Source of the DNA: an uncultured virus (IMG/VR IMGVR_UViG_3300030380_002570)
Lineage: Duplodnaviria > Heunggongvirae > Uroviricota > Caudoviricetes
IMG/VR virus record: IMGVR_UViG_3300030380_002570
Strand: one strand, 5' to 3'
DNA length: 20,000 nt
The translations under genes were made by a program, and so were the position numbers. The notes under the pieces were generated by a model. It ran no database searches, was not told the origin of the DNA, and saw only the letters and a program-made list of their open reading frames with translations. Below are positions 10,264-18,722 of the stretch, piece after piece. Position 1 is the stretch's first letter. Each line of letters opens with the position of its first letter.

Positions 10264-10710
10264 TTAGTTATGGTGAATATCAGTAGGGTCAAGGATTGTG
10301 GCTAGGATCTCATCATCGTTCAAAATCCTAACCTCGCTGCCAAATCTAGCAGCGTCTTCTCCGTTTAAACGGAACCTAGATCCAGCGTAACGCGCAAAGA
10401 TCACCCATTGTCGCTCTTCGCACCAACCGCCTTGTGGGTATTTTTCGCTGTCTTTGTATGCATCAGGACCTAGACGAAGCACGTATCCAACGTTTGTTTG
10501 AATAGCGTCTTCTTCCAAAGTCTTGGTGTTTAGTAAGATACCCCCCTTACTTTTTCGAGAAGCACGGAAGGGCATAATCAATATGCGCCAACCCGTGGGC
10601 TGGGGTAGTCGTTCAATTGCAGATTTTTCAATCAGAGAAGGGTCTAGCACGCGTTCCTCTTCCGGAACGTATACCTTAGATAAATCCAAGGTTTCTTTAA
10701 CTTCAGACAT
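10264..10710 (-). CDS. groES: Phage-encoded GroES-like co-chaperonin (Cpn10)
   Basis: 148 aa. PTGWRILI, mobile loop KSKGGILL, GYVLRLGP, VIFARYAG and ILNDDEILA all match the Cpn10 pattern. Confidence 0.9.
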   Translation of the reverse strand: MSEVKETLDLSKVYVPEEERVLDPSLIEKSAIERLPQPTGWRILIMPFRASRKSKGGILLNTKTLEEDAIQTNVGYVLRLGPDAYKDSEKYPQGGWCEERQWVIFARYAGSRFRLNGEDAARFGSEVRILNDDEILATILDPTDIHHN

Positions 10711-10900
10711 CCATCATTTCCTGTTTGTCTAGCATTTCAGAAAGCTCTACGAGAACGTAATCGCATGCGCGAATTTCCCCCATACACTCCCTGTAATGTT
10801 CCATATCTTTAATCCCGCCTTCCGACATTAGCTCGGTAATTTGGGCCTTGCGATCCAGCAGCGTCTTTCGGACATACTGCACAATATCGATACCGTCCAA
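10703..10900 (-). CDS. Small conserved hypothetical protein (TTG start)
   Basis: 65 aa helical hairpin, GGIKDMEHYRECMGEI. AAGGA RBS. Overlaps the groES start. Confidence 0.8.
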   Translation of the reverse strand: MDGIDIVQYVRKTLLDRKAQITELMSEGGIKDMEHYRECMGEIRACDYVLVELSEMLDKQEMMDV

Positions 10901-10969
10901 TCTAAGTGTCCTTAATTATCCGACGATATCTCATATTCTCGCGTCTTTGGCACAGGAAATCAACGACCG

Positions 10970-13417
10970 TTATAGGTCACCTTGTGTATTTTGTTGCTTG
11001 AGCAACTCTCTTTGCATGCCCGCATCAATACGAGCCGCCGTCTGGTTTTCTTGGCTTTGTAGCCGTTGTTGGAACTGAGCCTCACGCTGCGCAAGCTTTT
11101 GGCGCTCTAGCTCAAGCTCTTGTTGCTCCATAGCCATGTCGTTTTGTTCTTGCTGCGACTTCAACTGAAGTTCTTGTTGTTTCAACTGAACAAGAGGATC
11201 TGGTCCTTGTTGCGGCTGTCCTGCTTGCTGTACTTGCTGACCAAGCTGCACTACTTGCTGCATGATCGTCGCAACGTTTTGAGCGACCAAAGATTGATAC
11301 TGCTCATTATTAGCAGGGTCAACTAGCGCAACGTTCGGGTTTTGCTGCATAAACGCCTGCTCCGCCTGCTCCTCTGCCATTAACTGAACGTGATTCAAAA
11401 TGTGCTTCTGTATGGCAGCAACTACTTGAGGCAGTGAGGACGCAATACCACCTGTAACAAAGATTAAGTGGGCTTGGATATGCGCCATGTGGTTCTGTCC
11501 CCGGAATGCCTGTAACGCCACGTTATTCAGCGCGTCCATGTTTTCCTGTGCGGGGTCCTTCGGAGAAATCTCGTTTGGCGTGTCCGCCCGCAAGATCATG
11601 TCAGAGTTCTTAACGCCCAACGCGTCGTACACTCGGCGATACACTTCGGGAATGTTATGTATCTCAGGAGCCTGCATAGCCATCTGTAACTCAGTCTGAG
11701 CCAAAGCAATTCGCTGACTTTGAGAAAAAATGTTCGGATCAGATACGGGAAGAACGTCTACCCTATCGTCAAAGTCCTTGGCCTTAACCGTAGACTCTGC
11801 GCCCGGCACCTCATACGGATAGACCGGAGGTAAACTTTCTTTCATCACACGAGCCAAGATCTTGAACTCAATCTTCATGGCGTAATGTAGTCGCTTATGG
11901 ACAGCACTCATTACACGAGTGCCCTGCTCAATCATAGCTATCGTAGTGCCGACAGCCGCGTTTGGATTAGCGTCACCAACTTTCATATCAGTGATGGTGG
12001 CGAAACGCTGCGCAGCGTCCACTACAAAGCCTAGTAGCTGGAAAAGCGTGCCATCCGGGCCTTTGAACGGTAGTGGCATCAAACTGTCTCTAATCTGCCC
12101 TCCGGGCGCGTCAACGTCCCTAAATTCACCCGGTTGTAGCGGCGAATCATCGTCCCTGATCCGCAGGCCGCGAGCCTTGAATCCAGCAGGGAGGTTAGAA
12201 AGCGTACCCGCATCAATCAATTGACGCAGTGCGGCAGTCGCGGTTCGCGATAAACCACCGATTGTGTGAATCAAACCAAGGCCGTAAAACCCAAATCCGG
12301 GCAAAAACTTGTAATGAACAAAGTATTGAATCTTTGTAGTTAAGGGATCTTCTTCCTCATAATTACGCCGAATAGCCAATATTTTGCTGTTTTCTTCGCT
12401 AATAGTGACGATATACGGCACTTTTATGCCTGTTTCTTCACCATCTTCATCTTTGTTTTCATAGCCGGGAAGATCTAAATCCGCATGAAACTCCAACAGA
12501 GTGCAGTCGTAATCGATGCTTGAAGCACTTACACCGTCAATATGATCGATTTCATCCGAAATACTGCTGCTGGATGCCTGCGACGGTAAAACAGGAACAT
12601 CGCGGTAAAAACCAGAGATCTGCTGCTTACGAAGATCATTCAAGGACGTGCGAACAACGTGTGTAATACACGGGCAGGTAGCCAGATCCGATGTTTCATA
12701 AGGCACAACCAAGTGCTCTGCCGGTACGAATTTACTGACAGGGCGTCCTAACGTGTCATCAAAGTAAACTTTCTTAAAAGTACTGCCCGCTAAAGGTAGG
12801 TTGAACAGCATTTGATCGAATTCAGGGGTGTATTCCTCCATCACGTTGGTGATGTAGTAATTCATAAAGTTTTTTACGCGAGTAGCCTGCTCAGACTTGG
12901 CGTGCGTTGTCGATCCAAGAACCGTGGTCCGTATAGGGCCTCCCGCAGGCAATAGCTCATTGAAAGCTTGTGCCTGAAATTGCACAGCAGCTTCGGCAAG
13001 TAGGGGATGTGTAACGCCTGTAGCGCCCCTAAAAGGCTCTGTACGCTCTTCGTAGTTGAACCCTAGTAGTTCTAGGCCGTTAGAATAAGCCTCCTCCCAA
13101 TCGTGCCTAGACGCTCTGTTAGCGTCGTATTGCTCCATCAGGTCGTTGGCTACCTCCGCCATCTCGGATTCCGACATAAATTCCGCTAGATTGTCGAAAA
13201 AATCGTCTTCACGGTCTTTGTTTCGCAGTGGATCAAAGTCAAAGGTGACACCGCCATCCTCGTCTTGTGTTACTTCTACACCTTCAACGCTCATCACACC
13301 GTTGGTATCAAGCCCGTTAGGAAGCGCCTCAACTTCTACGGAAAGAAGTTCTTCTTCAGAAAGGTCCATGCCCTCTCTGTCCATCAACGAAACGGGAGGT
13401 CTATCGCCATTTGCCAT
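10970..13417 (-). CDS. Portal protein (P22-like size with a Gln-rich C-terminal coiled coil)
   Basis: 815 aa. FFDNLAE, HPLLAEAAVQFQAQA, LPLAGSTFKKVY, FLPGFGFYGLGLIH and LRQLIDAGTLSNLPAGFKARG. Long Q-rich tail. Confidence 0.92.
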   Translation of the reverse strand: MANGDRPPVSLMDREGMDLSEEELLSVEVEALPNGLDTNGVMSVEGVEVTQDEDGGVTFDFDPLRNKDREDDFFDNLAEFMSESEMAEVANDLMEQYDANRASRHDWEEAYSNGLELLGFNYEERTEPFRGATGVTHPLLAEAAVQFQAQAFNELLPAGGPIRTTVLGSTTHAKSEQATRVKNFMNYYITNVMEEYTPEFDQMLFNLPLAGSTFKKVYFDDTLGRPVSKFVPAEHLVVPYETSDLATCPCITHVVRTSLNDLRKQQISGFYRDVPVLPSQASSSSISDEIDHIDGVSASSIDYDCTLLEFHADLDLPGYENKDEDGEETGIKVPYIVTISEENSKILAIRRNYEEEDPLTTKIQYFVHYKFLPGFGFYGLGLIHTIGGLSRTATAALRQLIDAGTLSNLPAGFKARGLRIRDDDSPLQPGEFRDVDAPGGQIRDSLMPLPFKGPDGTLFQLLGFVVDAAQRFATITDMKVGDANPNAAVGTTIAMIEQGTRVMSAVHKRLHYAMKIEFKILARVMKESLPPVYPYEVPGAESTVKAKDFDDRVDVLPVSDPNIFSQSQRIALAQTELQMAMQAPEIHNIPEVYRRVYDALGVKNSDMILRADTPNEISPKDPAQENMDALNNVALQAFRGQNHMAHIQAHLIFVTGGIASSLPQVVAAIQKHILNHVQLMAEEQAEQAFMQQNPNVALVDPANNEQYQSLVAQNVATIMQQVVQLGQQVQQAGQPQQGPDPLVQLKQQELQLKSQQEQNDMAMEQQELELERQKLAQREAQFQQRLQSQENQTAARIDAGMQRELLKQQNTQGDL

Positions 13418-13426
13418 AATTCTTTC

Positions 13427-16400
13427 CTACATTGAGCCGGGGTTTACGCTGATATCCGAAAACTGGTTCAACGCGCCAAGCGGCGGCAACCCTAGTTTTC
13501 TTCTATCTTCGTTTATTAGCCGTAACTGTTCTACGGTGTATCCCATAGAGTTAGCAACAGCTTCTTCGCCTTGTCGGCTTAGGTATACGTTTATAAAGTC
13601 GTTTTCCGCAGCTTCTTTCGCAGCGTAATAGTCCTCAACAGGGCCGTATTTCTGTTCCCAAACAAGTTTTTTGGCGTTATATGCAGTGATTGCGCCAATG
13701 CCTCCACCACTTCTCACCGGAGGCGGCTCGGGGTAAAAGTTTGTTCCGGACGATGTCCCCGTCAATGCAGACGCGCTGGGGGTATCATCCATAACCGCCT
13801 CTGTATCCGGGGCCTGATACTCCTCAACAGGGCCGTATTTTCTTTCCCAGTTGGCTAGCTCTTCTGCATAAACAGACCTGCCAAAGCTTCCTGTTGAATA
13901 CTGATCCGACCTTGGTGGCGGAGGAGGTTGGTCAGTCGCAGTTTCTGGCCGACCATAGCGAACGCTCAAGAAAGGCATTGACCCAGCCGCCACTTGCGGC
14001 TTGTAAATGGGCATCTGGTACTCACCCTCTACCGCATCAGCAAACGGGTCGCCTGTACGTGCAATGTTCATGTTACGACTTGTGGCATAACCTTCCGTTT
14101 GAGGCGTTATTTCATCTGAAATATCAAAATCAACGACGGCATCAGACAACATCCCCGGCTCAGGACGATCAGGGGTGTCTGCTATAGGCGGAGGCGTAAA
14201 CATCGGCTCCGTAGGCACCGTTACCTCAGTTGGTTGCGGCGGCTGATATACAGGCGGGGGTAAATCCGGGGCAGGTGCCAACATAGGCGGTATGGACACC
14301 GGGGGGCTTGGAGGTTGCACTACATCCACCGGATCGGGTTGCGGTATTCCGGCTTGGCTTGTGTAAGGGTCACCTGTGTCCATCACTTCTACCGCGCCCG
14401 GTGCGGGTCCGCCCGCAACAATTCCACTAGCCGGTCTAACGGCTTGTGAAGGTGAGGGTGAGGGTGAGGGCGAAGGCGAAGGCGAAGGCGTGAACGGAGC
14501 CGTTTGTTGTTGCGCGGGCGGCGGTGCGCTAACTATGGGGGCCGCAGAAGGTTCCACTGGAATTGATTGCGAAGCTGCTATAGCAGCACGAATGGCTTCC
14601 GGATCTATGCCAAAGCCCGGATTCATCATCGCAGGACCCATACCGGGCGTTTCCGACCTAACATAGTCTCCGCGATCAAACTGCGTGTAATCTGGTCTAC
14701 CGCCTCGGCTCATCTGTACAGGCATTGTTCCACGTGGAACATTTCCGGCACCTGCCAAGGGTCCAGAGGTGTTGTACTTGTTCAAAAGGTTGGTTAGACC
14801 TTGGGTTACTCTAGGTTTCATAGTGTTCACCATACCACCGTTGGCGTATAAGTTGTCAGTTGGGTAGCCCGCTTCTTGCCGCAAGCGAAAGATTCTTTGA
14901 TTGACCCGATTGAGTGACGCTTGAATTTCTGACCGTTTTCGGGAACCTAGATCGTCTTGTCGCAAAGCTCCCATCATGCCATCTCGCATGGAAAGAAGAT
15001 TTGCTGCCGGGTCCTCTGTCGGAACGGGCTTGGGTGGCCCCATGCCCGGTAAATCCATTTGCGGATCATTAGGGTCGTCAATAGAAAAAGACGGCTGGCC
15101 TTTACGGCCTTCGGCCAGCGAGTAAACAAGCCCGCCTTGAGGTAGCACCATCCCTTGCGTGACTTCAGGGTCGAGGGTTTGCATTCCTGCGGGAGGGACT
15201 TTGTCAGTAAACGGTCTTAACTCACCAGACGGATGGCGCAGATACTCGCCTTCTTCAATGCCTTCAAACCTTCTTTGCACGTTACGTGCTTCGACTTCAC
15301 CCGGATTACCGGCATACATCTCGTATGATCGACTGTTTATTTCGTCTATCTGTTCTTTTTCTTTGAGTATTGGTCGTAGCTTTTGTATCTGTTCGTCAAA
15401 AGCGTTACCGATTCTTTCGGCGACTTTTTCTGAGTTTTTGACTCCGGCTTTTTTAAGCTCATCAGCCAAATAAATCATTTCTCGGTCAGAACCCCCGTAT
15501 CGAAAAGCCTGACCCCGATACTCTGTTTCAACGTCGGCAATTTCGTCTTCCGATGCCCCAAGATCTCGCAGTTGTTGTTGACGACGTGCAATAGCGTCTT
15601 CGAGTTCACGCCGGGATCTCTCTCCGACAGTAAGCTCCCCCGCAGCAAGCTGTTCCTCCTCTTCTGCACGCGCTCTGAGATAACCGATGGTTGCGCGTTT
15701 TACAAACCGGACTCTTTCCTCGTCTGCGCCTGCTAATCCCGTCTGAGTGCGCGGCGGCAATGTCGGCGAAGACAATTCAAATATTTTCCCAAAAAGCCCT
15801 GTTTTTGGTTTTTTCAATGCGGGGTCATCAAGGGTCACCACCAGATTGTCTAAACTATCCCCAATTTCCTTGTCTACCTCTTTACGGGCATTTTGGTTTT
15901 TAGTTTGTCTTTCCGCAAAGCCCGTAGGTTCAAACATCCGGGTGTTGGCACCGCCGTACAAGCCTTCGATGTCTTGCACCGCATGCTGAACTTCATGTAA
16001 CAGCGTGCTCATCATTTCTTTGCGACCTTCTGCCGTATTCGGCACGGACGCGAGAGAAATCTCTTTCGTGTCGGGGTTGTAAGCACCTTTAAGAAAGAGT
16101 GCCAAAGAGGGGGTTGGTTTTATTTGTATCGAGCGTAACTGAGGGTATTCGTCAAAAAGTTCAGGAAAATCAACGATTTGCTCTAATACAGGAGCTGGGA
16201 ATTTTGTCAAACCATCCCTACCAACCTTAGAATCCAATTTCGTAAAGCCGTATTTATTTAATTGTGTTTCGTCTAGATCAGAAAACCCCGGCACGTGTAT
16301 GTATTCTTTATCGTTATATTTGTTTATGCGTATACGAAGACCTTGCATCGCCTCAAGACGCTGTTGATCTCTAGTCTCCGGGTCTAATAACTTACCCAAC

Positions 16401-17257
16401 TCGACATCGGGGTCCTCCGTCTCTCGAAACACCCCCCGAAACGCAACGTTGCTTGTCGGTATTTCGTAGCGAACCTTGCCATCCAAGCTGGAGCGGTATG
16501 CCTTATACGTGTTAGCGCCGTCTTGTCTTTCCCACCCTTCCGAAGGGTCAAGACCGGCTTCCTCCAACATGGCAACCGTATCTTCCGCCTGCTTACCAGA
16601 CTTGCCGCTACCACTGCCAAAAATACCAAAGCTGGCTCTGGGCACGTCGCTAACCGCACGCCCAACAGCCAAAGGCGTCGTAGCCGATAAGAAGGCGTCA
16701 TATGGGTTGCCGGACATGCCCGTATCTGGGTCAATAACACGCTCACCACGCAAACTAGCAATGCCAGAAAGCTTTGCCTGATCCGACAACATTTGTGGAA
16801 CGCCTTGTAGCGTTTCTATTGCCTGTGCTCGTTTCTCCGGAGAGGTAATCAAATCCCCAGCAAAATCAACAGCTTGCGAGAAACCACGGGCCAAGGGCAT
16901 GTTTTCGCGGGCCTGCGGGCCTCTGCCTTCTTCCGGACGCATAAACACGCCGGGACGGATCGTCTCATCCGCACGCGATTCAAACTCATTAGTAACCGGA
17001 TTGAAAAACTCAGTGGCCGCGCCTAGTTGAGTTTCCGCAGGCAGGACCACTTCACGGCGACTTGTATCAAAAAGATCCGCCGCGCCACGAGCCAGAGCCG
17101 TGGGCAGACCAACGCGGTCAGATTCCATAGAAGCAGGGTACGCCTGTATCGCGTCACCAGTAGCCAGCAATTCTCGTATCTCAGGATCAAAGATATACTC
17201 TTGTTGATCTTCCGGAACCGGAATTAGCTTGCCGTACTCGTACTCGCGTTCAGCCAT
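13427..17257 (-). CDS. Large multidomain protein with an LPD23-like zincin (HExxH) domain and Pro-rich disordered C-terminus
   Basis: 1276 aa. DGKVRYEIP, FPELFDEYPQL, LLHEVQHAVQDIEG..GGAN and GEVEARNVQRR fit the large-polyvalent-protein domain 23 pattern as I recall it. AGGAG RBS; overlaps the terminase stop. Confidence 0.8.
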   Translation of the reverse strand: MAEREYEYGKLIPVPEDQQEYIFDPEIRELLATGDAIQAYPASMESDRVGLPTALARGAADLFDTSRREVVLPAETQLGAATEFFNPVTNEFESRADETIRPGVFMRPEEGRGPQARENMPLARGFSQAVDFAGDLITSPEKRAQAIETLQGVPQMLSDQAKLSGIASLRGERVIDPDTGMSGNPYDAFLSATTPLAVGRAVSDVPRASFGIFGSGSGKSGKQAEDTVAMLEEAGLDPSEGWERQDGANTYKAYRSSLDGKVRYEIPTSNVAFRGVFRETEDPDVELGKLLDPETRDQQRLEAMQGLRIRINKYNDKEYIHVPGFSDLDETQLNKYGFTKLDSKVGRDGLTKFPAPVLEQIVDFPELFDEYPQLRSIQIKPTPSLALFLKGAYNPDTKEISLASVPNTAEGRKEMMSTLLHEVQHAVQDIEGLYGGANTRMFEPTGFAERQTKNQNARKEVDKEIGDSLDNLVVTLDDPALKKPKTGLFGKIFELSSPTLPPRTQTGLAGADEERVRFVKRATIGYLRARAEEEEQLAAGELTVGERSRRELEDAIARRQQQLRDLGASEDEIADVETEYRGQAFRYGGSDREMIYLADELKKAGVKNSEKVAERIGNAFDEQIQKLRPILKEKEQIDEINSRSYEMYAGNPGEVEARNVQRRFEGIEEGEYLRHPSGELRPFTDKVPPAGMQTLDPEVTQGMVLPQGGLVYSLAEGRKGQPSFSIDDPNDPQMDLPGMGPPKPVPTEDPAANLLSMRDGMMGALRQDDLGSRKRSEIQASLNRVNQRIFRLRQEAGYPTDNLYANGGMVNTMKPRVTQGLTNLLNKYNTSGPLAGAGNVPRGTMPVQMSRGGRPDYTQFDRGDYVRSETPGMGPAMMNPGFGIDPEAIRAAIAASQSIPVEPSAAPIVSAPPPAQQQTAPFTPSPSPSPSPSPSPSQAVRPASGIVAGGPAPGAVEVMDTGDPYTSQAGIPQPDPVDVVQPPSPPVSIPPMLAPAPDLPPPVYQPPQPTEVTVPTEPMFTPPPIADTPDRPEPGMLSDAVVDFDISDEITPQTEGYATSRNMNIARTGDPFADAVEGEYQMPIYKPQVAAGSMPFLSVRYGRPETATDQPPPPPRSDQYSTGSFGRSVYAEELANWERKYGPVEEYQAPDTEAVMDDTPSASALTGTSSGTNFYPEPPPVRSGGGIGAITAYNAKKLVWEQKYGPVEDYYAAKEAAENDFINVYLSRQGEEAVANSMGYTVEQLRLINEDRRKLGLPPLGALNQFSDISVNPGSM
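13632..13840. repeat. 20-bp perfect direct repeat, 189 bp apart (coding duplication)
   Basis: TCCTCAACAGGGCCGTATTT at 13632-13651 and 13821-13840. Encodes the core of WE(R/Q)KYGPVE(E/D)Y twice. Confidence 0.95.
14448..14489. repeat. Hexamer microsatellite encoding (Pro-Ser)7
   Basis: GAAGGT, GAGGGT x2, GAGGGC, GAAGGC x3. Confidence 0.95.
14726..14741. promoter_or_regulatory. parS: Perfect parS-type palindrome (putative ParB-binding site) embedded in a CDS
   Basis: TGTTCCACGTGGAACA is a perfect 16-bp palindrome matching the chromosomal parS consensus TGTTNCACGTGNAACA. It is read as NVPRGT in the protein. Confidence 0.8.
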
Positions 17258-18722
17258 AGTATGCTCCTGCTGTGATGCTTACCGACTCATCACCTTCTTC
17301 CCAATCATCACTAGGCAACTGAACAAAGTTACCCTGCCGATAGCGCATCAGCGCCTGTGTGGTGCTATCCACCAAATCATCGTGAGTCCCATTAGGAAAA
17401 GCAGCGCATTCTTCCACCACTTCTTGCGCCCATGACTCGTCCGGTGCCCAAATCATACCAGCTTCAAACAACGGAGATATACTGTGTACCCTAGATAGCT
17501 TGTCATTTCCACGGCTGGGCGTAAAATTTACCACCGGAATGCCCAGTTGACGCAATTCCTGCGTCAGAGGGGTCCCTGACGCCTTCGCTTCCACAATAAC
17601 CGTCTCTGGTTCCCAGTATTTGTACTGATCTAACGCAACTTCTTTCAATTCTGGGAAATCCCACCGCCCTTTTTTCGCATCAAGCAGTATTAAATGCGCC
17701 GGACCACCAATTTCTTCAGGGTAAAACACGCCCCACGTCGTAATCGCACTGTAGTCAGCCGTTTCTCGCTTACTAAACGCCGTATCGTAGCTCTGAATCA
17801 CGTAATGAAGGTTCGGAATGTGGTCTTTTTCCCAAACATTCCACCATTCACGCTTCAAAATAGCCAAAGTCTCAGAAGTAGGGTTCTGCTGGTACTGCGC
17901 ATTCCACTGGTACGACGGAATCGACGCCTTAACCGATTCTAACTCCTCTTTTTTCCAAAATTCCGGCCAACATGGCTCACCAGACTCAAAAATTGCAGGT
18001 AATTCAAGGACTTCCCACTGATCTGCAAACGGATCTTTGGTCATTTGACGCACCAAATTGCCCGTCATGTCCTTTTCTGACCACCGAGTCTGGACCAAAA
18101 CAATAGCCCCACCCGGCTGGAGACGTTGTCGGGGACCCGCCGTGTACCACTCCCACGCATTCTCAAAACCACTCGCGGACATCGCCGTCTGCTCCGAGTG
18201 AGGATCGTCAATAATGATCAAATCACCACCACGTCCCGCCAAGTTCGACCCCACGCCCACCGCGTAGTACATACCACCCGACTTTGTGTCCCACCGGCCA
18301 GACGCTTTACTGTCCGCAGACAGCTTCGTATCGTCAAAAATCTCTTTATATTCATCGGTTTCTAGAAGGTTCTTCACCTTACGACCGAAGTTTACCGCCA
18401 GTTCGGTGGTGTGCGTGGCCTGAATGATCTTCATCGACGGGTTTCGACCAATCATCCACGCCGGAAACAAATAAGAAGCAAACTCACTTTTCGTATGACG
18501 CGGCGGCATGTTGATGATCAATCGCTTCAACTTCCCAGAGGCGATCTGCTCCATCTTCTCCGCGATCAAATGGTGGTGCCGACCCGCAATGAACTCCGGC
18601 CACATAGAGCGTACAAATGGTAAAAATTCATTCTGGCAAGTTTCTACCTTCTCCAATTGCTTCAAACGAAGCTCTAAGCGAAGTTTCTGTACGTCTGCAT
18701 CAGTCTGAGTATCAAGGTTCAA
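17250..18722 (-). CDS. terL: Terminase large subunit
   Basis: 490 aa, TTG start. Walker A-like MPPRHTKSE, Walker B LIIIDDP, coupling motif VQTRW, and RNase H-like nuclease motifs SYDTA and HDDLVDS. Confidence 0.95.
   Translation of the reverse strand: MNLDTQTDADVQKLRLELRLKQLEKVETCQNEFLPFVRSMWPEFIAGRHHHLIAEKMEQIASGKLKRLIINMPPRHTKSEFASYLFPAWMIGRNPSMKIIQATHTTELAVNFGRKVKNLLETDEYKEIFDDTKLSADSKASGRWDTKSGGMYYAVGVGSNLAGRGGDLIIIDDPHSEQTAMSASGFENAWEWYTAGPRQRLQPGGAIVLVQTRWSEKDMTGNLVRQMTKDPFADQWEVLELPAIFESGEPCWPEFWKKEELESVKASIPSYQWNAQYQQNPTSETLAILKREWWNVWEKDHIPNLHYVIQSYDTAFSKRETADYSAITTWGVFYPEEIGGPAHLILLDAKKGRWDFPELKEVALDQYKYWEPETVIVEAKASGTPLTQELRQLGIPVVNFTPSRGNDKLSRVHSISPLFEAGMIWAPDESWAQEVVEECAAFPNGTHDDLVDSTTQALMRYRQGNFVQLPSDDWEEGDESVSITAGAYYG

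What the first reader, a model, noticed from the sequence alone, without database searches (positions are those of the whole stretch)
14726..14741. Perfect host-type centromere (parS) hidden inside a phage virion-module gene
Seen: the perfect palindrome TGTTCCACGTGGAACA lies in a low-complexity linker of the 1276-aa ORF and reads in frame as NVPRGT. Known: this matches the chromosomal parS consensus bound by CTP-dependent ParB clamps, which spread along DNA, engage ParA and load SMC. A match to a specified 16-mer is expected by chance roughly once per 10^5 windows of this size. No parA or parB gene is present in this window. Inference: the phage may borrow the host ParABS/SMC system in cis, to position or segregate its genome (carrier state or pseudolysogeny), coat its DNA as 'self', or titrate ParB away from the host origin. 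A weaker look-alike, GTTCCACTGGAA (one base deleted), lies nearby at 14551-14562.
Basis: partly seen in the sequence, partly recalled or inferred. Interest (0 to 1): 0.8.

Follow-up and report, generated by a model that had tools for sequence, protein, structure and literature searches.

The report
Host centromere site written into phage gene
A group of uncultured marine phages keeps an exact copy of the bacterial chromosome "centromere" word (parS) inside one of its own protein-coding genes, and the DNA word is conserved rather than the protein, so these phages most likely dock the host's ParB protein onto their own genome.

Summary
TGTTCCACGTGGAACA lies at 14726-14741, inside the 1276-aa ORF between the large terminase and portal genes, and reads NVPRGT.

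Conservation, not the single match, is the evidence.
- All 24 related IMG/VR loci that reach this codon position carry a parS there.
- The only changes are at the two free positions of the consensus (giving VSRET and VPRET), plus one outermost base.
- Synonymous variation is 1 of 100 codons at the site against 245 of 861 in the flanks.
- All 25 database homologues read V[P/S]R[G/E]T.

So the DNA word is under selection, not the peptide.

A second perfect copy lies in a conserved promoter leader about 11 kb upstream in 5 of 8 relatives.

Neither the window nor two long relatives (65% and 90% complete) encode ParB, ParA or an integrase.

The nearby look-alike (14551-14562) is chance.

The precedent is Bacillus phage phi29, which has five parS sites read by host Spo0J. 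This scan has already noted orphan parS sites on other lytic phages. I class this as a new variant of a known kind. What the site does for the phage is still open.

The parts
14726..14741 (.). Perfect 16-bp chromosomal-type parS palindrome TGTTCCACGTGGAACA, the conserved element.
   Evidence: It is kept at the same codon position in 24 of 24 covering relatives.
14711..14806 (-). Conserved 32-codon block (TQGLTNLLNKYNTSGPLAGAGNVPRGTMPVQM) that carries the site. It is an island between mosaic, variable N- and C-terminal parts of the protein.
   Evidence: translation; codon alignment: flanking codons vary synonymously, the site codons do not.
13427..17257 (-). 1276-aa ORF of unknown function (P0001) that hosts the site. 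It lies between the large terminase and portal genes and has an HEVQH motif near residue 421. In some relatives the gene is split or longer, yet the site is kept.
   Evidence: only phrog_13543, unknown function; no Pfam domain above cut-off; stop-to-stop ORFs of 428-1520 aa around the site in relatives.
17250..18722 (-). Large terminase subunit gene, directly upstream of the host ORF (context).
   Evidence: phrog_38, E 7e-111; Terminase_6C.
10970..13417 (-). Portal protein gene, directly downstream of the host ORF (context).
   Evidence: phrog_1216, E 9e-54.

Best explanation
The 16-mer is a working ParB-loading site (parS) that a clade of lytic-looking marine phages keeps by selection on the DNA itself, written through a tolerant stretch of a large virion-module gene.

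Shown: the DNA word is conserved rather than the peptide. The phages encode no detectable ParB, ParA or integrase.

Inferred: From established ParB biology, ParB dimers would bind the palindrome, close into CTP-dependent clamps and slide over neighbouring phage DNA. That would give the phage genome the properties of a host origin region, namely contact with ParA and, where present, SMC loading.

My best guess for the benefit (inferred, about 35-40% on its own): the non-integrated phage genome is positioned and passed to daughter cells when the lytic cycle is delayed in slow-growing hosts. This is the non-sporulating counterpart of phi29's Spo0J-dependent spore entrapment.

Many relatives add a second identical site in the leader of an operon about 11 kb upstream, so the two sites bracket the terminase genes and the genes just upstream of them.
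For: (1) Exact match to tGTTNCACGTGNAACa at 14726-14741.

(2) Every covering relative has a parS at the same codon position: 24 of 24 loci from two searches whose seed peptides did not include the site. Counting the window, there are 21 x TGTTCCACGTGGAACA, 2 x TGTTTCACGTGAAACA, 1 x TGTTCCACGTGAAACA and 1 x TGTTCCACGTGGAACG. Protein identity among these relatives runs from 95% down to 32-36%.

(3) All changes inside the 14-bp core fall on the two N positions. They change the peptide non-conservatively (P to S, G to E), while V and R each use a single codon in 20 distinct sequences.

(4) The 5' T is kept as the third base of five different codons: AAT, GGT, CGT, AGT and ACT.

(5) All 14 flanking columns with an invariant, degenerate amino acid use at least 2 codons. 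Synonymous non-majority codons are 1 of 100 at the site against 245 of 861 in the flanks (Fisher p = 1e-12, not corrected for phylogeny).

(6) 25 of 25 database homologues read V[PS]R[GE]T: VPRGT 20, VSRGT 4, VSRET 1.

(7) The same 16-mer recurs in non-coding DNA, in a conserved promoter leader 48 bp before an ATG. It is perfect in 5 of 8 contigs found by a leader motif that excludes the site. It lies 10.5 and 11.1 kb from the intragenic site in G002 and G007.

(8) ParB_N, HTH_ParB, AAA_31 (ParA-type) and Phage_integrase were all absent in six-frame searches of G002 (65% complete) and G007 (90% complete), while the controls matched. Pfam scans of 25, 33 and 41 ORFs found none either.

(9) Precedent: phi29 carries five parS sites, and host Spo0J helps move its genome into the prespore (PMC2731898, passages read).
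Against: No binding was tested and the host is unknown, so it is not shown that the host has a ParB. No relative of the 1276-aa ORF's protein was found in 185,579 species genomes.

The window's own full genome is not held, so a phage ParB outside the window cannot be excluded for this particular phage. About 10% of G007 is also missing.

The sequences are related, so the Fisher test overstates independence. The palindrome-keeping double change (VSRET) rests on one lineage (L014 and L015).

The protein search drew its words from the region that holds the site. Some of its proteins are probably encoded by the same phages as the loci. It is therefore neither unbiased nor independent.

The leader copy is dispensable: 1 of 8 is degenerate and 2 of 8 lack it. 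It was found upstream of only 2 of 47 homologues of the G002 downstream gene.

Of the four nearest isolated phages by terminase, two have no site within 2 mismatches. The trait therefore belongs to this clade and not to the wider group.
Confidence: 0.7

Rival explanations
1. The palindrome is read by a phage-encoded DNA-binding protein that is not a recognisable ParB, such as a regulator or a packaging-recognition protein. Its identity with parS would then be convergence or mimicry. The sites would act as operators or packaging landmarks, one in an operon leader and one just behind the terminase gene.
For: One copy sits in a promoter leader 48 bp upstream of a start codon. The two copies bracket the terminase genes. 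Many small ORFs have no family assignment. G007 encodes an unusual protein with RNA polymerase alpha-CTD and sigma region 4 domains.
Against: The site equals the universal chromosomal parS at all 14 specified positions and varies only where ParB tolerates variation. A private phage operator has no reason to do that. No ParB_N or HTH_ParB domain was found.
Confidence: 0.12
2. Host ParB does bind, but the benefit is damage to the host rather than phage segregation. Many replicating phage copies would soak up the limited ParB pool, dissolving the host's origin complexes and disturbing segregation, division-site placement or replication control.
For: This reading rests on the same sequence evidence as the main explanation. 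One or two sites per genome would be multiplied by phage replication. The effect needs no ParA or SMC action on phage DNA. This is inference from established ParB biology; no call bears on it directly.
Against: Nothing here separates it from the main reading. A sponge would gain from many sites, yet the clade keeps one universal site and at most two.
Confidence: 0.15
3. The conservation reflects the protein (a needed VPRGT-like motif), or an mRNA or DNA hairpin, and the parS match is coincidental.
For: The surrounding 32-residue block is conserved as protein too. The palindrome folds as a 6-7 bp RNA hairpin in the window (-14.8 kcal/mol, z -2.8) and in L014. The C-to-T plus G-to-A double change would also keep a hairpin pair.
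Against: Residues 2 and 4 of the motif change non-conservatively, while synonymous sites stay fixed: 1 of 100 against 28% in the flanks. The asymmetric variant in L216 is not predicted to form the hairpin (z -0.2), yet it still fits the parS consensus. The identical 16-mer recurs in non-coding leaders. Of 65,536 possible 16-bp palindromes, this is exactly the parS one.
Confidence: 0.03

Closest known systems
parS sites of the virulent Bacillus phages phi29 and Nf, read by host Spo0J (ParB). Source: PMC2731898, passages read, which cites Meijer et al. 2005 (not read).
   Same: A lytic-type phage with no partition genes of its own carries host-chromosome-type parS sites, so a host protein is brought onto phage DNA in cis.
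   Different: phi29 has five sites and the documented use is trapping the genome in the spore. Here there is one universal site, written inside a coding sequence, plus an optional leader copy. The phages are marine, about 50% G+C, about 55-60 kb, and nearest by terminase to uncultured marine phages and pelagiphages. A spore route is unlikely, but the host is unknown.
Chromosomal ParABS centromeres, with origin-proximal parS of consensus tGTTNCACGTGNAACa (consensus as given in the finding; Livny et al. 2007 recalled, seen only in a reference list).
   Same: The sequence is identical at all 14 specified positions, with variation only at the two free positions.
   Different: The site is not on a chromosome, not near an origin, and has no adjacent parAB operon.
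Plasmid-prophage partition systems (P1, N15 and actinobacteriophage parABS cassettes; recalled).
   Same: A phage genome carries a centromere-like site.
   Different: Those phages encode their own ParA and ParB and have private parS sequences. Here no ParB_N, HTH_ParB or ParA-type ATPase was found, and the site is the host chromosomal type.
Host regulator sites on lytic phages, such as Spo0A boxes on phi29 and CtrA sites on Alphaproteobacteria phages (PMC9437464; search listing and start of abstract only).
   Same: Phage genomes keep binding sites for a host cell-cycle DNA-binding protein.
   Different: Those are transcription-factor sites that time the lytic cycle. parS loads a sliding clamp linked to segregation.
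Orphan host-type parS sites on other lytic phages noted earlier in this scan (e1-6227716, e1-5926125, e1-6011049, e1-6010652, e1-5838710; unchecked AI notes).
   Same: Perfect or near-perfect chromosomal parS, no partition genes, conserved among relatives, often near packaging genes or early promoters.
   Different: On other DNA and other phage groups. As summarised, those sites lie between genes or in control regions. Here the site is inside a codon frame, which allows a direct test of DNA-level against protein-level selection.

Membership tests
Chromosomal-type parS (ParB binding site) | Match to the 16-bp consensus tGTTNCACGTGNAACa | tested here: met
   The match is exact at 14726-14741. 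Relatives differ only at the N positions or the outermost base.
Chromosomal-type parS (ParB binding site) | Maintained by selection on the DNA, beyond what the coding sequence requires | tested here: met
   24 of 24 covering loci keep it. Synonymous non-majority codons are 1 of 100 at the site against 245 of 861 in the flanks. The peptide changes only at the N positions.
Chromosomal-type parS (ParB binding site) | Specific binding and CTP-dependent loading of a ParB | not testable with these tools
   This needs EMSA, BLI or ChIP with ParB of the host, which is unknown.
Chromosomal-type parS (ParB binding site) | Origin-proximal position on a chromosome next to parAB | tested here: not met
   The site lies in a phage structural module between the terminase and portal genes, with no parAB in the window. 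It therefore works like a parS but is not a chromosomal centromere.
phi29-type host-read phage parS | Lytic-type phage without its own partition genes or integrase | tested here: met
   No ParB_N, HTH_ParB, AAA_31 or Phage_integrase in G002 or G007 by six-frame search, with controls positive. Nothing in the window's ORFs. No relative of the 1276-aa ORF's protein in 185,579 species genomes. The window's own whole genome could not be checked.
phi29-type host-read phage parS | Several parS sites spread over the genome (five in phi29) | tested here: not met
   One site in the 20-kb window. Two in G002 and two in G007.
phi29-type host-read phage parS | ParB (Spo0J)-dependent transfer of the phage genome into a spore or daughter cell | not testable with these tools
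   The host is unknown. A spore-forming host is unlikely for these marine phages, but that was not tested.
Plasmid-prophage ParABS cassette (P1/N15 type) | Phage-encoded ParA and ParB next to a private centromere | tested here: not met
   Searches found none.

The most novel reading that the evidence does not exclude
Docking host ParB would be a general, so far unrecognised strategy of abundant 'lytic' marine phages. A single host-type parS, kept even at the price of fixing five codons of a structural-module gene, would let the unintegrated genome ride the host's ParA/ParB/SMC machinery. In slow-growing ocean bacteria this would give heritable, integrase-free carriage, a third lifestyle between lysis and lysogeny. 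Alternatively, the two sites that bracket the terminase genes would organise phage DNA for packaging. The natural variants (VPRGT, VSRET, VPRET, VSRGT) would then be an evolutionary read-out of what ParB tolerates.
Probability: 0.3. Interest if true: 0.8.

Novelty: new variant of a known kind. Interest (0 to 1): 0.62.

Why it matters
If host ParB really loads on these phage genomes, a widespread group of marine phages uses the host's chromosome-segregation machinery without encoding any of it. That would bear on how 'lytic' phages persist in slow-growing ocean bacteria (carrier state or pseudolysogeny). It could also bear on how infection disturbs host cell-cycle control.

The case is unusually clean because the site is inside a reading frame. 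Codon evidence separates DNA-level from protein-level selection without any experiment, and it gives four natural site variants to test.

Together with the other orphan parS sites noted by this scan, it suggests that the phi29 case is one example of a broader phenomenon. In six full-text searches I found no paper describing this for any phage other than phi29 and Nf.

Tried and rejected
- **Weaker look-alike (14551-14562).** Rejected as chance. It is not conserved beyond near-identical relatives, and half-sites are not enriched.
- **Own genome.** It is not held. The nearest record, G001 (11.7 kb), does not cover the region and has no site.
- **Near-identical DNA in isolated phages.** None found. 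tblastn with the protein gave only a weak 9%-coverage hit to Xanthomonas phage DES1.
- **Enrichment across all viral contigs.** I did not run the control.
- **Leader copy as a conserved partner of one gene.** Rejected. Only 2 of 47 homologues of the G002 downstream gene have it. The leader precedes three unrelated first genes.
- **Homology of the 1276-aa protein to the proteins at the same position in pelagiphage HTVC027P and phage 023Pt_psg01.** None by tblastn at E <= 0.01.
- **What the host ORF is.** No Pfam domain above its cut-off. Only insignificant coiled-coil-like PDB matches, the best at E 0.008.
- **Host identification.** No relative of the 1276-aa protein in species genomes, and cluster members carry no useful names. 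G002 has a GTA-type holin, which is only a weak hint of an alphaproteobacterial host.
- **CACGTG frequency.** The hexamer is neither avoided nor enriched, so restriction-site statistics do not explain the site.
- **RNA hairpin reading.** Disfavoured by the L216 variant.
Full report
**1. Observation**

The perfect palindrome TGTTCCACGTGGAACA is at window 14726-14741. It is the only match in the window even when up to 3 mismatches are allowed; shuffles gave a mean of 0.07.

It lies in the minus-strand ORF 13427..17257 (1276 aa) and reads N839-VPRGT844 in frame.

PHROGs and Pfam place this ORF in a phage packaging and head module. The order is small terminase, a small Hjc-like ORF, large terminase (17250..18722), this ORF, portal (10970..13417), a GroES-like ORF, major capsid and SU10-type adaptors. 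The ORF itself has no assigned function.

By my arithmetic an exact 16-mer is expected about once per 2x10^5 windows, and the 14-base consensus about once per 1.3x10^4. In a scan of this size a lone hit is weak evidence, so I looked at relatives.

**2. Conservation of the intragenic site**

A search of IMG/VR with the protein returned 23 loci. Its seed peptides do not include the site.
- 20 of the 23 carry TGTTNCACGTGNAACA.
- The other three (L013, L018, L023) are cut by contig ends and do not reach residues 839-844.

A second search used an alignment restricted to the part upstream of the site. It added seven loci.
- Four reach the position, and all four have the site or 15 of its 16 bases: L212, L213, L216, L218.
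- Three end before it: L214, L215, L217.

So 24 of 24 covering loci have the site, at protein identities from 95% down to 32-36%.

With the window, the variants are as follows:

| Sequence | Count | Peptide |
|---|---|---|
| TGTTCCACGTGGAACA | 21 | VPRGT |
| TGTTTCACGTGAAACA (L014, L015) | 2 | VSRET |
| TGTTCCACGTGAAACA (L216) | 1 | VPRET |
| TGTTCCACGTGGAACG (L218) | 1 | VPRGT; a synonymous change at the outermost base |

**3. Selection acts on the DNA, not the peptide**

These results come from a codon alignment of 20 distinct sequences.
- GTT, CACGTG and AAC are invariant. The 6-base run is the longest invariant run in the segment.
- The only variable core positions are the two N positions of the consensus.
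- V and R each use one codon. T uses ACA 19 times and ACG once.
- All 14 flanking columns with an invariant, degenerate amino acid use 2-5 codons.
- The 5' T is preserved as the third base of AAT, GGT, CGT, AGT or ACT. In lineages that lack the Asn codon, the preceding Gly codon is GGT rather than GGA.

Synonymous non-majority codons are 1 of 100 at the site and 245 of 861 (28%) in the flanks. Fisher p is 1e-12, which is overstated because the sequences are related.

At the protein level, 25 of 25 database homologues read V[PS]R[GE]T: VPRGT 20, VSRGT 4, VSRET 1. That search drew its words from the region that holds the site, and it probably overlaps the loci, so it is supporting evidence only.

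The residues that change (P/S, G/E) do so non-conservatively. They change only by the single transitions that the parS consensus allows.

An mRNA hairpin is a poorer explanation. The asymmetric L216 variant is not predicted to fold (z -0.2), whereas the window version is (z -2.8). The same 16-mer also occurs in non-coding DNA (section 4).

The gene architecture around the site varies. Stop-to-stop ORFs run from 428 to 1520 aa, and in seven loci the site is about 107 codons into a shorter ORF. The segments on both sides are mosaic. The site persists through all of this.

**4. A second, optional copy**

G002 (36.7 kb, 65% complete) and G007 (50.9 kb, 90% complete) each have a second perfect copy, 10.5 and 11.1 kb upstream of the intragenic one.

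This copy lies in a non-coding leader with promoter-like hexamers, 48 bp before an ATG.

A scan with a 22-base leader motif that excludes the site found 8 contigs:
- 5 have the perfect site.
- 1 has a decayed version, TGTTCCACGCGGAGCA.
- 2 lack it.

Three unrelated genes follow this leader. Only 2 of 47 homologues of the G002 downstream gene have the site upstream. The leader copy is therefore facultative, while the intragenic one is universal.

The window ends before the place where a leader copy would lie, and it has no leader motif.

**5. Who reads the site**

The window's 25 ORFs have no ParA, ParB or integrase domain.

Six-frame searches of G002 and G007 found no ParB_N, HTH_ParB, AAA_31 (ParA-type) or Phage_integrase, while control genomes matched. 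Pfam scans of 33 and 41 of their ORFs agree.

G002 supplies the replication module: family A DNA polymerase, a primase and two helicases. G007 supplies nearly everything else. Together they cover most of the gene set of this phage type.

No relative of the 1276-aa ORF's protein was found in 185,579 species genomes, which fits a non-integrating phage.

The most economical reader is therefore the host's chromosomal ParB. This is an inference. The host is unknown, and the only hint is a GTA-type holin in G002.

By large terminase, the nearest isolated phages are as follows:

| Phage | Identity |
|---|---|
| 023Pt_psg01 | 68% |
| Pelagibacter phage HTVC027P | 64% |
| DSL-LC04 | 62% |
| Pelagibacter phage HTVC023P | 58% |

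The window's 44-55% G+C in 1-kb steps argues, from recalled knowledge of the low G+C of SAR11, for a different host.

The gene products at the same position in HTVC027P and 023Pt_psg01 are unrelated to this ORF.

HTVC027P has CGTTTCACGTGAAACA, a perfect 14-bp core, in an intergenic region near its small terminase gene. By my arithmetic about 0.009 such matches are expected per genome. 023Pt_psg01 and DSL-LC04 have nothing within 2 mismatches, and HTVC023P has only weaker matches.

**6. Mechanism**

Shown:
- A DNA word identical to parS is under purifying selection in a phage clade.
- That clade has no detectable partition genes.

From established ParB biology (recalled): ParB dimers nucleate at parS, close as CTP-dependent clamps and slide for kilobases. 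They stimulate ParA and load SMC. One parS can stabilise an otherwise unstable plasmid in B. subtilis in a Spo0J/Soj-dependent way.

Inferred: host ParB loads on the phage genome. The likeliest benefit is positioning and inheritance of unintegrated genomes during delayed infection. Titration of ParB, SMC-assisted organisation of the region around the terminase genes, or repression of the leader promoter remain possible. Nothing here separates these options.

**7. Comparison and novelty**

The closest known case is phi29 and Nf. phi29 has five parS sites, and host Spo0J helps move its genome into the prespore (PMC2731898, passages read).

I checked it in the paper.

The scan has noted orphan host-type parS sites on other lytic phages before, on other DNA. 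There are 16 such notes, of which 8 were shown.

Literature checks:
- Six full-text searches turned up no description of host-type parS on any lytic phage other than phi29 and Nf.
- The HTVC023P-type pelagiphage paper PMC9599517 contains neither 'parS' nor 'ParB'.
- Subscription journals are mostly outside the searched library.

I class this as a new variant of a known kind, for three reasons:
- It occurs in marine hosts that probably do not form spores.
- There is one universal site rather than five.

**8. Verdict**

| Claim | Confidence |
|---|---|
| The site is selected at the DNA level | about 0.95 |
| It is a ParB site read by the host protein | about 0.7 |
| Any one downstream purpose | at most 0.4 |

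Noticed in passing
L223:1319-2323 (minus strand; G007, a relative): A 334-aa phage ORF combines DUF6891, an RNA polymerase alpha C-terminal domain (E 7e-18) and sigma-70 region 4 (E 1e-5). This is an unusual fusion that looks like a device for redirecting host transcription.
   Followed up: no
L204, MN698241.1 positions 16412-16427 (Pelagibacter phage HTVC027P): A near-perfect parS (CGTTTCACGTGAAACA, with a perfect 14-bp core) lies between gp31 and gp32, near the small terminase gene of an isolated pelagiphage. This phage and its host can be cultured, so the idea could be tested there.
   Followed up: partly
window 10264-10710 (minus strand): A GroES/Cpn10-like ORF (Pfam E 3e-6; PHROG co-chaperonin) sits between the portal gene and the head genes, followed by a 259-bp gap without a listed ORF at 10711-10969.
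   Followed up: no
window 14446-14488: A 12-bp tandem repeat (3.6 copies) encodes the (Ser-Pro)n run of the 1276-aa ORF, part of its low-complexity C-terminal half.
   Followed up: no
window 13427-17257, and L006-L009, L012, L017, L022: The large ORF is strongly mosaic. At least four different sequence types lie upstream of the conserved block and several lie downstream. In seven relatives the block lies about 107 codons into a shorter ORF of 428-569 aa. The parS block may also mark a recombination joint.
   Followed up: partly
L029:291-698 and L029:14929-16319 (G002, a relative): G002 has a GTA-type three-helix holin (PF11351) and Pam3 gp33/gp34-like genes. The holin is a weak hint of an alphaproteobacterial host.
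   Followed up: no
Several contigs hold dense clusters, for example five sites within about 800 bp in L074 and three in L071 and L093. These could be phage-plasmids or chromosomal origin regions filed as viral.
   Followed up: no
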